Part shown: positions 1-1,825 of the stretch, piece by piece
How the letters are laid out: every line of letters starts with the position of its first letter
Position numbering within the stretch: the first letter of the stretch is position 1
Assembly: GCA_964457875.1 (NCBI GenBank)
Contig: CAYWGM010000003.1
Span: 1 to 54,925, forward strand
Direction: 5' to 3'
Length of the DNA: 54,925 nucleotides
Source: an uncultured Eubacteriales bacterium
GTDB lineage: Bacteria; Bacillota; Clostridia; Acetivibrionales; CAYWGM01
The notes under the pieces: generated by a model
Databases searched by the model: none
Seen by the model: the letters and a program-made list of their open reading frames with translations, nothing else
What the model was told of the DNA's origin: nothing
Position numbers and translations under genes: made by a program

Positions 1-157
1 CTGTATCTATTTTTCTGTTTAAGATGTCATGTCCTTCGGCAACGATCTGTATCTTCCGATTAATGTCCTCGGTAATCACTCCCATATGCCGTTTGACTTC
101 ATCGACCTTGGTATCAAACATATCCTTTATCTTTACAAGCATCTCATCATTATCCAT
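1..157 (-). CDS. hypothetical small protein, N-terminal part only (gene runs off the left edge)
   Basis: ATG at 157-155 with AGGAG 8 nt upstream. Reads MDNDEMLVKIKDMFDTKVDEVKRHMGVITEDINRKIQIVAEGHDILNRKIDT..., with a heptad-like charged/hydrophobic pattern. Absent from the ORF track because the truncated piece is under 60 aa. Confidence 0.35.
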   Translation of the reverse strand, partial: MDNDEMLVKIKDMFDTKVDEVKRHMGVITEDINRKIQIVAEGHDILNRKIDT

Positions 158-241: not shown

Positions 242-1306
242 TTAATTTACCACTGTATGATCATTGGTTAAGCTCGCTTCAAGCTCAGTTATTATCCCGC
301 TCAAAGCATTCATGGCCTCAATCCTTGATGAGTGTGCACTCCAGCCTGATTTCTGCAGCAACTCTTGTAGTTCATGGTCGAACAGATCAATCCTGTTCTG
401 AATACTTGGGGCATGCCGGGTGAAGATGGTCTGTCTATACCCCTGAGTAACTGTTACGGATACCGATTCTGCCATGAACCAGTCCCCTACTATTGTCAGG
501 CTTTCCTTCGTGTCTTTGCTGACAACTATCTGCACCTTATCATCAGGCATGGATTCCAGGAATTCTATCAAAGACCTGATACGGACTAACTGAGCAGCAG
601 CACTGTGTTTGCCTTTGATCATATAAGGATCGATTATCAGGCGGCATCCGTTCTCCCGAGCATGTTTCTCCAGAGCCAGACGTTCATTGCGCTGGCATCT
701 GCAGTGGTGATCGCTGCGTGTAAAAGGTGCGTACCGTTCTTTCCATACCGGATCGGTGATCACCTTATCCGGAATATGAAAAGAGCTCAAAGCCCCCTTT
801 TGCCGGACACATCCGTACATATCCAACGACGATACCTTCTCAGCGTACCCCGCCATCATCATGGCGCGGTCTTCGGCCAGCTCGGCGCATTGGAACAAGG
901 CATACGATATATCCCGGTACCGGTTTATCAGGTTTTCAAATACTTTCATTGACAGCTGTTCTCTGACCCTGCTCATATCCTCGCTCAATTGTATGGCATG
1001 AAGTGTCTGGATCATTTCTCCCGGCAACGTATCCCTCGTTACAGGCAGTACAGGGATATTAAGAGCCATAGCGTATCCTATCTCCTGATGCACCCAGCCT
1101 CTTTTGCCCGAGGCAGATGTGATTATCGGCATGAAGACATGCGCATGCGCGATAAATGCTTGTATCTGCTCATGAAAGCCCGTCCCGAATGAAAGGTTCT
1201 TGTCCCACATCGGAATCAGCCCGTTTTCTTTGAGTACGGTCACAATCTCGTCGACAAGTTCCCGATCCTTATGCGCATAGCTGATGAATACACGGTATTC
1301 GTCCAT
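242..1306 (-). CDS. TIR domain-containing protein with an uncharacterised ~220 aa C-terminal domain
   Basis: 354 aa ORF. The N-terminus RVFISYAHKD...HVFMPIITSASGKRGWVHQEIGYA matches the bacterial TIR pattern (F-I-S-Y/H start strand; S-x-x-W-x-x-x-E with the conserved Glu). I cannot place residues ~130-354 in any family. The ATG at 1306 is 1 nt downstream of the nrdR stop (TGAtATG). Confidence 0.8.
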   Translation of the reverse strand: MDEYRVFISYAHKDRELVDEIVTVLKENGLIPMWDKNLSFGTGFHEQIQAFIAHAHVFMPIITSASGKRGWVHQEIGYAMALNIPVLPVTRDTLPGEMIQTLHAIQLSEDMSRVREQLSMKVFENLINRYRDISYALFQCAELAEDRAMMMAGYAEKVSSLDMYGCVRQKGALSSFHIPDKVITDPVWKERYAPFTRSDHHCRCQRNERLALEKHARENGCRLIIDPYMIKGKHSAAAQLVRIRSLIEFLESMPDDKVQIVVSKDTKESLTIVGDWFMAESVSVTVTQGYRQTIFTRHAPSIQNRIDLFDHELQELLQKSGWSAHSSRIEAMNALSGIITELEASLTNDHTVVN

Positions 1307-1307
1307 A

Positions 1308-1763
1308 TCATTTTTCCCTGAGAAGTTTGTTCAACTCGTCCATGAATGTATTTATATCTTTAAATTGTCTGTATACTGAAGCAAATCTGACATATGCGAC
1401 CTCGTCGAGGGATTTGAGCCTGGATATCGCCAACTCGCCGATATCCCTTGATGTAACTTCGCGCTGCAGCGTATTCGATAACTGCGCTTCTATATCGTCG
1501 ACGATCTTTTCGAGTTCCGACATCGGCACAGGCCTTTTCTCACAAGCCTTCATCAGGCCGCCAAGCAATTTCTCACGGTCAAAGGGCTCGCGTGACTTGT
1601 CCTTTTTTATGACCATAACAGGAATATTCTCGACCTTTTCATATGTCGTGAACCTCTTCAGACAGTTGGAACACTCCCTGCGCCTTCTGATAGCCGTACC
1701 CTCTTCTGTCGGTCTGGAGTCTATGACCCTGTCGTCTTCGAAACCGCAAAACGGACACTTCAT
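1308..1763 (-). CDS. nrdR: transcriptional repressor NrdR (zinc ribbon + ATP-cone)
   Basis: [39 protein letters not shown] is the canonical NrdR N-terminus. 151 aa. Confidence 0.97.
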
Positions 1764-1825
1764 GATGTTATTTACCTCATTTAAATCCTATCATTCAAGA
1801 CATGATATTTCAAGAATTTGTTTGA

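What the first reader, a model, noticed from the sequence alone, without database searches (positions are those of the whole stretch)
242..1306. TIR-domain protein with an unrecognisable C-terminal domain, translationally abutted to nrdR
Seen in sequence: a 354 aa ORF whose first ~130 aa carry bacterial TIR hallmarks (RVFISYAHKD at the N-terminus; SASGKRGWVHQEIGYA with the W-x-x-x-E glutamate position). The remaining ~220 aa (YALFQCAELAEDR ... TIVGDWFMAESVSVTVTQGYRQTIFTRHAPSIQNRIDLFDHELQELL) match nothing I can name. Its ATG is 1 nt after the nrdR stop (TGAtATG) with no promoter or terminator between them, so it is almost certainly co-transcribed with nrdR at the tail of the dcw-spoIIG-sigG-ylmC-nrdR string. 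Established knowledge: bacterial TIR domains are NAD-cleaving or signal-generating modules in antiphage systems such as Thoeris ThsB, TIR-STING, TIR-APAZ/pAgo and CBASS effectors. These usually sit in accessory islands with a partner gene. Inference: this is either a single-gene TIR effector with a new sensor domain, or half of a system continuing beyond the left edge. Wiring it to the nucleotide-pool-sensing repressor NrdR is unusual. It is the only accessory-looking gene in an otherwise housekeeping window.
Basis: partly seen in the sequence, partly recalled or inferred. Interest (0 to 1): 0.7.

Follow-up and report, generated by a model that had tools for sequence, protein, structure and literature searches.

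The report
Orphan TIR enzyme with PLD-like domain
The gene after nrdR encodes an immune-type TIR enzyme fused to a degenerate phospholipase-D-like domain; the protein family is widespread but uncatalogued, it usually sits beside proteins with ryanodine-receptor (RyR) domains, and its link to nrdR is unique to this genome.

Summary
A 354-aa ORF (242-1306, minus strand) starts 1 nt after the nrdR stop. It has a clear TIR domain (Pfam TIR_2, E 2.3e-18) whose invariant Glu75 aligns with the catalytic Glu of bacterial TIR NADases.

The "unrecognisable" C-terminal domain (CTD) now has a fold. A confident model (pLDDT 92.8) matches PLD-superfamily domains (NucT, Nuc, TrmBL2), but the HxK..D catalytic motif is absent. 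The CTD occurs almost only behind a TIR domain: 584 hits among 1.84 billion representatives.

The family is patchy across more than 15 bacterial and archaeal phyla, all in MAGs. It is never next to nrdR (0 of 84 loci), and 80 nrdR loci of relatives lack it. The nrdR link is therefore probably an incidental insertion.

No partner lies past the left edge; the next gene encodes a small coiled-coil protein.

New finding: in 23 of 76 family loci a co-directional neighbour within 500 bp carries C-terminal tandem RyR domains (0 in controls). These domains keep the residues that phage RyR proteins use to bind 2'/3'cADPR.

Best reading: this is an orphan member of a Thoeris-like family that cleaves NAD+. 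It is a new variant of a known kind.

The parts
242..1306 (-). Complete gene for the 354-aa TIR + PLD-like protein (stop codon 242-244)
   Evidence: ORF list. There are 901 full-length homologues whose N-termini align at MxxYRVFISYSH. The window protein keeps every residue that is conserved at 80% or more in 88 divergent representatives.
923..1306 (-). TIR domain, residues 1-128
   Evidence: Pfam TIR_2 E 2.3e-18. The AF2 model shows a flavodoxin-like fold. Foldseek matches SARM1, TIR-STING, SPARTA TIR-APAZ, BtTir and BtpA.
1082..1084 (-). Codon of Glu75 (GAG), the putative catalytic glutamate in WVHQE
   Evidence: Invariant in the family. HMMER aligns it with the Glu of the W..xE motif of BtTir, Cat1, BtpA and AbTIR.
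245..922 (-). C-terminal domain (CTD), residues 129-354: PLD-superfamily fold without the HKD motif
   Evidence: AF2 model of the CTD alone has pLDDT 92.8 and pTM 0.89. Foldseek against the PDB finds NucT 6ehi (E 2.6e-4), TrmBL2 5bpd, Nuc 1byr and Zucchini. Foldseek against BFVD finds a phage NucT-like nuclease and a poxvirus PLD-family lipase. No Lys is conserved at 80% or more in the CTD.
1307..1319 (-). Junction with nrdR: 1-nt spacer (1307), nrdR stop codon (1308-1310), AGGGA SD-like element (1315-1319) inside the nrdR 3' end
   Evidence: Read directly from the sequence. No terminator-like site on the minus strand.
1308..1763 (-). nrdR (zinc ribbon + ATP-cone), the upstream neighbour. It is not a conserved partner of the TIR family.
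   Evidence: TIGR00244 E 4.5e-65. Pfam ATP-cone and Zn_ribbon_NrdR. No NrdR in 91 family loci.
1785..1813 (-). Promoter-like site (TTGAAA-17-TAGGAT, with TG extension) upstream of nrdR. It could drive an nrdR-TIR transcript.
   Evidence: Consensus scan only. The number of sites in the region is no higher than in shuffled sequence.
1..157 (-). 5' end (52 codons) of the next gene downstream, cut by the contig end. It encodes a small coiled-coil protein and is not a recognisable defence partner.
   Evidence: Translation. The single homologue, P0275 (89 aa, 71% identity), lies in a TrkA/Usp context. No match among neighbours of family members.

Best explanation
The gene encodes an orphan member of a widespread, uncatalogued two-domain family, here called TIR-PLDl. 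It belongs to prokaryotic conflict or anti-phage systems that act on NAD+.

Shown:
- The N-terminal domain is a TIR with the catalytic-type Glu.
- The CTD has a PLD-superfamily fold but lacks the HxK..D catalytic motif.
- The CTD is found almost only fused behind a TIR.
- The family is scattered across many bacterial and archaeal phyla in defence-island-like neighbourhoods.
- In about a third of loci it is operonic with proteins that end in tandem RyR (R12) domains.

Inferred:
- The PLD-like domain is a regulatory module. It would sense an infection cue or drive oligomerisation, and so switch on the TIR.
- The TIR would then cleave NAD+ into ADPR or cADPR-type products.
- Where RyR-domain proteins are encoded alongside, they would receive that product through their intact C-terminal RyR repeat, as ThsA receives the ThsB signal in Thoeris.
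- Their N-terminal modules (AAA/STAND ATPase, kinase, RelA/SpoT, TrkA_N) would execute the response.

In this window the gene has no such partner. It sits 1 nt after nrdR at the 3' end of the ftsAZ-spoIIG-sigG-ylmC-nrdR string and is probably read through from nrdR. That arrangement is unique to this genome and most likely results from where a mobile gene landed.
For: TIR domain:
- Pfam TIR_2 scores 67.3 bits.
- The fold matches SARM1, TIR-STING and SPARTA.
- Glu75 is invariant and aligns with the catalytic-motif Glu of BtTir, AbTIR, Cat1 and BtpA.

CTD:
- The PLD fold is found in two structure libraries.
- No HKD motif is present and no Lys is conserved. R147, R168, E208, R209, H215, R242 and H298 are conserved at 90% or more.
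- Only 584 proteins among 1.84 billion representatives match the CTD profile. In most of the 150 best hits listed the CTD lies at about residues 130-350; seven of nine atypical-length hits checked by Pfam begin with a TIR and two short ones (223 and 226 aa) have no Pfam hit.

Distribution:
- 95 relatives were found in 185,579 species genomes. The 80 best loci listed span more than 15 phyla, including Bathyarchaeia, Methanoregulaceae and Methanobacteriaceae.
- Neighbourhoods hold other TIR proteins, HEPN, DUF4062-STAND, WYL, PemK and transposases.

RyR link:
- RyR proteins lie within 500 bp in 23 of 76 unique loci, and within 10 kb in 33 of 76. Most are co-directional.
- No RyR hit occurs in 514 kb of control loci.
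- RyR is the top Pfam family among the 86 immediate co-directional neighbours: 18, against 6 for the next.
- The closest relatives of the window protein (L012, L013, L014, L016; 59-64% identity) all have an adjacent RyR protein.
- The second RyR repeat keeps H (46/48), W (40/48), H (24/48) and D (43/48) at the spacing of the ligand-contacting H75/W78/H100/D117 of phage RyDEP.
- Phage RyR proteins bind or cleave 2'/3'cADPR (PMC13232231; 10.64898/2026.06.04.730250).
- One partner combines RelA/SpoT, a SLOG domain (LSDAT) and RyR.
- Three of three independent AAA-RyR loci also carry TIR or DUF4062 proteins of other families.

nrdR link is incidental.
Against: - No biochemical data exist for any family member.
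- The window copy has no RyR protein. None is on the 55-kb contig and the rest of the genome was not available.
- 13 of 68 family loci are solo. This fits a self-contained NAD+-depleting effector as well as a signal synthase.
- The RyR repeats also keep the H/D dyad that makes RyDEP a glycosidase. The partners could therefore degrade the product rather than sense it.
- PADLOC ThsB models match only weakly and only over the TIR region.
- The role of the CTD as sensor or oligomeriser rests on analogy with TIR-STING, TIR-SAVED and Cat1, not on a test.
- Composition gives no sign of recent transfer (GC3 z 1.8, codon-usage z -0.43).
Confidence: 0.55

Rival explanations
1. It is a self-contained single-gene abortive-infection effector. 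The PLD-like domain senses a phage component, the TIR domains then assemble and deplete NAD+, and no signal or partner is involved. The RyR neighbours would belong to separate systems in the same islands.
For: The window copy and 13 of 68 loci have no co-directional neighbour within 300 bp. In L008/L015 the gene sits alone between metabolic genes on the opposite strand. The TIR is closest in fold to the NAD+-depleting TIRs of SARM1, TIR-STING and SPARTA. The tight, nearly exclusive TIR-CTD fusion suggests a self-sufficient unit.
Against: RyR proteins lie within 500 bp in 23 of 76 loci, often with gaps of 12 bp or less or with overlaps. That is closer than island co-residence predicts. The RyR repeats keep the cADPR-contacting residues. 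Neighbours also include NUDIX, TrkA_N and SLOG domains, all linked to NAD/ADPR chemistry.
Confidence: 0.3
2. The CTD is an active PLD-type nuclease or phosphodiesterase and is the real effector. The TIR would serve as an assembly or regulatory domain.
For: The best structural matches include true nucleases: NucT, Nuc, Zucchini and a phage NucT-like nuclease. Two His (H215, H298) and several Arg are conserved at 90% or more in the CTD.
Against: The defining HxK(x)4D motif is absent. The structurally equivalent strand reads E-S-L-T-I-V-G-D, and no Lys is conserved at 80% or more in the CTD. Non-catalytic PLD-like domains (TrmBL2, TrmB, MITD1) match about as well as the nucleases. No PLDc Pfam hit appears even at E 10. 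The TIR catalytic Glu is invariant, which argues that the TIR is an active enzyme.
Confidence: 0.07
3. It is a housekeeping nucleotide-metabolism enzyme functionally tied to NrdR, for example a DNPH1-like or nucleoside-2-deoxyribosyltransferase-like N-glycosidase acting on (d)NMP pools.
For: The gene starts 1 nt after nrdR. TIR and the DNPH1 / deoxyribosyltransferase families share a fold, and Foldseek lists DNPH1, MilB and BcmB. There is a weak Pfam hit to Nuc_deoxyrib_tr (E 0.011).
Against: TIR_2 scores 67 bits, while Nuc_deoxyrib_tr scores 16 bits and falls below its cut-off. None of 84 family loci has nrdR nearby, and none of 80 nrdR loci from relatives has the gene. Only 95 relatives were found among 185,579 species genomes. 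Neighbourhoods are defence-like. The window has no NrdR box.
Confidence: 0.03
4. It is a non-functional remnant: an orphan left behind after loss of its partner and drifting toward decay.
For: There is no partner in the window, although its closest relatives have one. A decaying copy exists elsewhere: in L074 the gene is split into three ORF fragments.
Against: The ORF is intact and full-length. The protein keeps all residues conserved at 80% or more in the family. It has a plausible SD-like element and translational coupling to nrdR.
Confidence: 0.05

Closest known systems
Thoeris ThsB (TIR signal synthases) with ThsA-type effectors
   Same: Both are stand-alone bacterial TIR proteins with the catalytic Glu. 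The family is often operonic with a protein whose C-terminal domain (RyR) belongs to a fold shown to bind 2'/3'cADPR. This parallels the SLOG or Macro sensor domains of Thoeris effectors.
   Different: The TIR carries a fixed PLD-like CTD. The putative receiver domain is RyR, which does not appear in the text or four held supplements of the Thoeris survey that annotated 29 putative system types (10.64898/2025.12.03.692087). PADLOC ThsB models match only weakly. The window copy has no effector gene.
TIR fused to a ligand-sensing domain: TIR-STING, TIR-SAVED (Cap), Cat1 (CARF-TIR), SPARTA TIR-APAZ
   Same: Each has a TIR NADase joined to a second domain that controls assembly. TIR-STING and SPARTA are among the top Foldseek hits for the TIR part, and Cat1 is the second-best PDB sequence match.
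   Different: The CTD here is not STING, SAVED, CARF or APAZ. It has a PLD fold. The domain order also differs from Cat1.
SARM1 / AbTIR / BtTir TIR NADases
   Same: They share the fold (rmsd about 3-4 A, 20-22% identity to SARM1 TIR) and the W-x-x-x-E catalytic motif. WVHQE here resembles WVHKE around SARM1 E642; that SARM1 sequence is from memory and was not tested.
   Different: There are no ARM/SAM domains. The regulatory domain is different and the products are unknown.
PLD-superfamily single-HKD nucleases (Nuc, NucT, Zucchini) and non-catalytic PLD-like domains (TrmB/TrmBL2 C-domain, MITD1)
   Same: Same fold: Foldseek probability 1.00, with TM-score up to 0.60 when normalised to the target.
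   Different: There is no HxK(x)4D(x)6GSxN motif and no sequence-level similarity. The domain has its own set of conserved Arg, His and Glu residues. It resembles the degenerate branch (TrmBL2, MITD1) as much as the enzymes.
Phage RyR-domain proteins RyDEP and RyR Tad (comparison for the partner proteins, not for the window gene)
   Same: The partners' C-terminal RyR repeat keeps H..W-x21-H-x16-D. This is the spacing of RyDEP H75/W78/H100/D117 and of RyR Tad H129/W132/H154/D171.
   Different: The partners are cellular and large (600-1000 aa). They carry tandem repeats, one intact and one degenerate, fused to ATPase, kinase, RelA-SpoT or TrkA_N modules. They are encoded next to the TIR rather than in phage anti-defence loci.

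Membership tests
TIR domain (Pfam PF13676 TIR_2) | Profile match above the gathering score | tested here: met
   67.3 bits against a cut-off of 28, E 2.3e-18, residues 6-110.
TIR domain (enzymatic NADase type) | Flavodoxin-like fold with a conserved catalytic Glu after the W of the alpha-C region | tested here: met
   AF2 model plus Foldseek hits to SARM1, BtTir and BtpA. E75 is invariant and aligns with the Glu of AbTIR, BtTir and Cat1.
TIR domain (enzymatic NADase type) | NAD+ cleavage activity | not testable with these tools
   Needs a biochemical assay.
Thoeris (ThsB + effector) | Adjacent effector gene with a domain that senses the signal | tested here: not met
   In the window the neighbours are nrdR and a small coiled-coil gene. 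In the wider family, 23 of 76 loci have an adjacent RyR-domain protein, which could play that role.
Thoeris (ThsB + effector) | Match to ThsB models | tested here: inconclusive
   PADLOC ThsB hits have E 2e-5 to 0.05 and cover only part of the TIR. Pfam ThsB_TIR scores 17.2 bits, below its cut-off of 21.2. NCBIfam ThcB4 scores 22 bits against a cut-off of 220.
PLD superfamily | PLD alpha/beta fold | tested here: met
   Foldseek with the CTD model finds NucT, Nuc, TrmBL2, Zucchini, PPK1 and Streptomyces PLD, plus a phage NucT-like nuclease and a poxvirus PLD lipase.
PLD superfamily | HxK(x)4D(x)6G(S/G)xN catalytic motif | tested here: not met
   No such motif occurs in the sequence or the family consensus. 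No Lys is conserved at 80% or more in the CTD. No PLDc Pfam hit at E up to 10.
TIR-STING / TIR-SAVED / TIR-APAZ | C-terminal STING, SAVED or APAZ domain | tested here: not met
   The CTD-only fold search returns none of these. The full-length hits to them have TM-scores of 0.28-0.32 relative to the query, consistent with a match limited to the TIR domain.
NrdR regulon / conserved nrdR operon partner | Conserved synteny with nrdR, or an NrdR box upstream | tested here: not met
   0 of 84 family loci have nrdR within 10 kb. 0 of 80 nrdR loci from relatives have the gene. No NrdR box in the window.
Nucleoside 2-deoxyribosyltransferase / DNPH1-like N-glycosidases | Profile match above the gathering score | tested here: not met
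   PF05014 scores 16.3 bits against a cut-off of 28.8. The similarity is at fold level only.

The most novel reading that the evidence does not exclude
TIR-PLDl proteins and their RyR-domain neighbours form a previously undescribed class of Thoeris-like immune signalling. The TIR would make a cADPR-type nucleotide. The receptor would be a cellular tandem RyR (R12) domain fused to ATPase, kinase, RelA-SpoT or TrkA_N output modules. If so, the RyR repeat would be an ancient cellular receptor for TIR-derived ADPR signals, and phages would have borrowed it as a sponge or glycosidase. The window gene would be an orphan signal synthase of this class, expressed from the nrdR transcript.
Probability: 0.35. 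Interest if true: 0.8.

Novelty: new variant of a known kind. Interest (0 to 1): 0.58.

Why it matters
TIR enzymes are central to immunity in bacteria, plants and animals, and each new partner domain has revealed a new trigger or signal. This family joins a TIR to a degenerate PLD-fold domain. It is absent from the defence and annotation libraries tested: PADLOC 2.0 and NCBIfam 20 give only weak matches confined to the TIR domain.

Its operonic link to cellular RyR-domain proteins fits two 2026 preprints showing that phage RyR domains bind or cleave 2'/3'cADPR. If the link is functional, it gives a cellular setting in which an RyR repeat receives a TIR product. That bears on the old question of whether cADPR-type molecules act directly on the ryanodine-receptor R12 domain. 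It would also add a set of effector architectures to Thoeris-like immunity.

For this particular genome the result is more modest. The gene is an orphan defence-type gene at the tail of a housekeeping operon, and the NrdR connection is probably incidental.

Tried and rejected
- Sequence searches with the CTD alone found nothing. This covered Pfam at E up to 10 on 23 members and a PDB profile search.
- The full-length fold search was dominated by the TIR domain. I therefore modelled the CTD separately.
- I looked for a partner beyond the left contig edge. The 52-aa fragment has one homologue, a small coiled-coil protein in a non-defence context, and no match among family neighbours.
- Exact look-ups of window proteins show that each is a singleton cluster at 90% identity and carries no source name. 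No closely related genome was available.
- I tested whether the nrdR pairing is conserved and rejected it.
- I tested for NrdR boxes and found none.
- Compositional signs of horizontal transfer are not significant.
- The family is not on sequenced plasmids, phages or IMG/VR viral contigs.
- The RyR partners are not in PADLOC or NCBIfam as defence proteins. Only a kinase domain and a RelA/SpoT domain gave hits.
- No paper in the library describes TIR-PLD fusions or cellular RyR-TIR systems.
- I could not map the conserved CTD residues in 3D, because model coordinates are not exposed.
Full report
**1. The observation**

The window holds a 354-aa ORF at 242..1306 on the minus strand. nrdR lies directly upstream at 1308..1763 and matches TIGR00244 at E 4.5e-65, with Pfam Zn_ribbon_NrdR and ATP-cone domains. 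One base (1307) separates the nrdR TGA from the ATG. An AGGGA element sits 8 nt before the ATG, inside the end of nrdR.

A consensus scan finds no terminator-like site on the minus strand between the two genes. It finds a promoter-like site upstream of nrdR at 1813-1785, but the number of such sites in the region is no higher than in shuffled sequence. Upstream genes are ylmC/ymxH, sigG, sigE, spoIIGA, ftsZ and ftsA.

Residues 6-110 match Pfam TIR_2 with 67.3 bits against a cut-off of 28.

**2. The TIR domain**

An AlphaFold2 model built on 31 homologues (pLDDT 82.6) gives a flavodoxin-like N-terminal domain. Foldseek matches it to SARM1, TIR-STING, SPARTA TIR-APAZ, BtTir and BtpA.

Glu75 in WVHQE is invariant, both in 31 close homologues and in 88 representatives that are only 33-52% identical to the window protein. 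HMMER aligns it with the Glu of the W..xE motif in BtTir, Cat1, BtpA and AbTIR. The domain therefore has the features of an enzymatically active TIR. The activity itself was not tested.

**3. The C-terminal domain (CTD)**

By sequence the CTD matches nothing. None of 23 members gives a Pfam hit, even at E 10, and a profile search of PDB sequences finds nothing.

Modelled on its own with 50 sequences, it folds with high confidence (pLDDT 92.8, pTM 0.89). Foldseek against the PDB returns PLD-superfamily domains:
- NucT 6ehi (E 2.6e-4)
- TrmBL2 C-domain 5bpd (E 9e-4)
- Nuc 1byr (E 1.6e-3, TM-score 0.60 normalised to the target)
- Zucchini, PPK1, MITD1, TrmB and Streptomyces PLD

The viral library independently gives a phage NucT-like nuclease and a poxvirus PLD-family lipase.

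The defining HxK(x)4D motif is absent. The strand that should carry it reads (E)S(L)TIVGD, and no lysine is conserved at 80% or more anywhere in the CTD. The residues conserved at 90% or more are R147, R168, W188, E208, R209, H215, R242, T293 and H298. The CTD is thus a degenerate, or at least non-canonical, PLD-fold domain. Non-catalytic PLD-like domains (TrmBL2, MITD1) match it as well as the nucleases do.

**4. The family**

There are 901 clusters of full-length homologues at 90% identity, typically 340-390 aa and 50-66% identical to the window protein. They come from Acidobacteriota, Syntrophomonadaceae, Actinobacteria, Pirellulales and Methanoregula, among others.

A CTD-only profile scored against 1.84 billion representative proteins finds only 584 hits. 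In most of the 150 best hits listed, the CTD sits at about residues 130-350. Among nine hits of atypical length checked by Pfam, seven begin with a TIR domain and two short ones (223 and 226 aa) have no Pfam hit. Rare variants add a second TIR, a protein kinase or a HAD hydrolase. The two domains form a tight evolutionary unit.

In one genome per species (185,579 genomes), 95 relatives were found. The 80 best loci listed are all from MAGs and span more than 15 phyla, including three archaeal lineages. None was found on 72,556 plasmids, 50,697 phage genomes or IMG/VR viral contigs. PADLOC 2.0 and NCBIfam 20 give only weak, TIR-limited hits. The family is not catalogued in these libraries.

**5. 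The nrdR link**

None of the 91 family loci examined (84 with a full-length member) encodes NrdR within 10 kb. Conversely, 80 metagenomic loci whose NrdR is 62-75% identical to the window's contain no member of the family. The gene after nrdR in those loci varies in size and strand. The window holds no NrdR box.

The window proteins are singletons at 90% identity, so no close relative could be compared. The composition of the gene is not an outlier (GC3 z 1.8, codon-usage z -0.43).

The abutment is real, and co-transcription is likely. It is particular to this genome, however, and most simply reflects insertion of a mobile gene at a variable operon end.

**6. Is there a partner past the left edge?**

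The next gene starts at 157 and runs off the contig after 52 codons. Its only homologue in 5.8 billion proteins is an 89-aa coiled-coil protein encoded after TrkA and Usp genes. It resembles no neighbour of any family member. The window copy is therefore an orphan.

**7. The family's neighbours**

Context look-ups showed defence-island features: other TIR proteins, HEPN, DUF4062-STAND proteins, WYL regulators, PemK and transposases. Clustering all ORFs of the loci revealed a supercluster of large proteins next to the family gene. Their shared element is a C-terminal pair of RyR domains (PF02026).

With an HMM built from these domains:
- RyR proteins occur within 10 kb in 33 of 76 unique loci.
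- They occur within 500 bp in 23 of 76 loci, mostly on the same strand and often with gaps of a few bases.
- There are no hits in 514 kb of control loci and none in the window.

Among the 86 immediate co-directional neighbours, RyR is the commonest Pfam family (18). Next come DUF4062 (6), AAA_16 (6), TrkA_N (5), TIR_2 (4) and NUDIX (3).

Partner architectures include:
- an N-terminal region with no Pfam match, then an AAA/STAND-like ATPase and RyR x2 (about 900 aa)
- TrkA_N followed by RyR x2
- RelA/SpoT, TPR, a SLOG domain (LSDAT) and RyR
- a Ser/Thr kinase, TPR, TPR-S and RyR

The four closest relatives of the window protein in genomes (L012, L013, L014, L016) all have an adjacent RyR protein. 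The AAA-RyR family is itself large (at least 1,195 clusters). In three of three independent loci it sits beside TIR or DUF4062 proteins of other families. The RyR-to-TIR/NADase link is therefore general, and TIR-PLDl is one of several TIR partners.

**8. Why RyR matters**

Two 2026 preprints show that phage RyR-domain proteins bind 2'cADPR, 3'cADPR and cADPR at nanomolar affinity. One of them, RyDEP, cleaves the ribose-ribose bond. The ligand contacts are H75, W78, H100 and D117 in RyDEP, and H129, W132, H154 and D171 in RyR Tad (PMC13232231; 10.64898/2026.06.04.730250).

The cellular partners keep this pattern in their second repeat:
- H in 46 of 48
- W in 40 of 48
- H in 24 of 48
- D in 43 of 48

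Twelve of the 48 distinct RyR proteins show the identical H..W-x21-H-x16-D spacing. The first repeat is degenerate, with W replaced by Y and D replaced by N in 36 of 39.

Neither preprint discusses cellular RyR-domain proteins as partners of TIR enzymes; this was checked by term search for the first and only from RyR-related passages for the second. The Thoeris survey that annotated 29 putative system types does not mention RyR or PF02026 in its text or in the four supplements held.

**9. Mechanism**

Shown: a TIR with the catalytic-type Glu; a PLD-fold CTD without HKD; an exclusive fusion of the two; a patchy distribution in defence-like neighbourhoods; and a strong operonic link to RyR-domain proteins that keep cADPR-contacting residues.

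Inferred:
- The CTD senses a cue or mediates oligomerisation that activates the TIR, by analogy with TIR-STING, TIR-SAVED, Cat1 and SPARTA.
- The TIR converts NAD+ into an ADPR or cADPR-type product.
- RyR-domain proteins receive that product and act through their N-terminal modules, as ThsA does in Thoeris.

The main rival is a self-contained NAD+-depleting effector. That fits the 13 of 68 solo loci and the window copy. The RyR proteins could also be product-degrading regulators, because they keep the H/D dyad of the RyDEP glycosidase. An active PLD nuclease, a housekeeping NrdR-linked enzyme and a decaying remnant are each disfavoured by specific tests.

**10. Verdict**

The gene is an orphan member of an uncatalogued TIR-PLD-like family. 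The nrdR wiring is probably incidental.

The most interesting outcome lies outside the window: a recurrent genomic pairing of this TIR family with cellular RyR-domain proteins. I rate the finding a new variant of a known kind (TIR-based immunity), with interest 0.58.

Noticed in passing
Loci L004, L009, L012-L014, L016, L018, L031-L033, L036, L037, L042-L044, L048, L051, L054, L056, L062, L077, L078, L080 (genes within 500 bp of the family gene): Large cellular proteins ending in tandem RyR (PF02026) repeats sit next to the TIR-PLDl gene, mostly on the same strand. The second repeat keeps the cADPR-contacting H/W/H/D residues of phage RyDEP, and the first repeat is degenerate. Control loci have none.
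   Followed up: yes
L173/L174 (Chloroflexi), L175, L176: The roughly 900-aa AAA-RyR family has at least 1,195 clusters at 45-65% identity across phyla, including archaea. In 3 of 3 independent loci it lies beside TIR or DUF4062 (NIR NADase) proteins of other families. The RyR-NADase pairing is therefore broader than the TIR-PLDl family.
   Followed up: partly
L018:3268-5757: A single 829-aa protein combines a RelA/SpoT nucleotide pyrophosphokinase domain, TPR repeats, a prokaryotic LSDAT SLOG domain and RyR repeats, directly downstream of a TIR-PLDl gene. It thus has two putative ADPR-derivative sensor domains in one protein.
   Followed up: no
window 1-157 (minus strand): The gene cut by the contig end encodes a small coiled-coil protein. 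Its only homologue in 5.8 billion proteins is an 89-aa protein encoded after TrkA and Usp genes. A promoter-like site lies at 218-190 (minus strand).
   Followed up: partly
L074:9971-11128: In a Methanoregulaceae MAG the family gene is split into three ORF fragments. This is either a frameshifted or decaying copy, or an assembly error.
   Followed up: no
L071 and L078 (same contig CAVPON010000011.1, Methanobacteriaceae); L026 and L050 (same Desulfobacterales MAG): Some genomes carry two copies of the family. The two Methanobacteriaceae copies are about 24 kb apart.
   Followed up: no
window 1-54925: No NrdR-box-like palindrome (ACACWATATWTWGTGT, up to 3 mismatches) occurs anywhere on the contig, including upstream of nrdR.
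   Followed up: yes
P0129, P0220, P0133: Rare family variants add a C-terminal Ser/Thr kinase (1,013 aa), a HAD hydrolase (647 aa) or a second N-terminal TIR (516 aa) to the TIR-PLDl core.
   Followed up: partly
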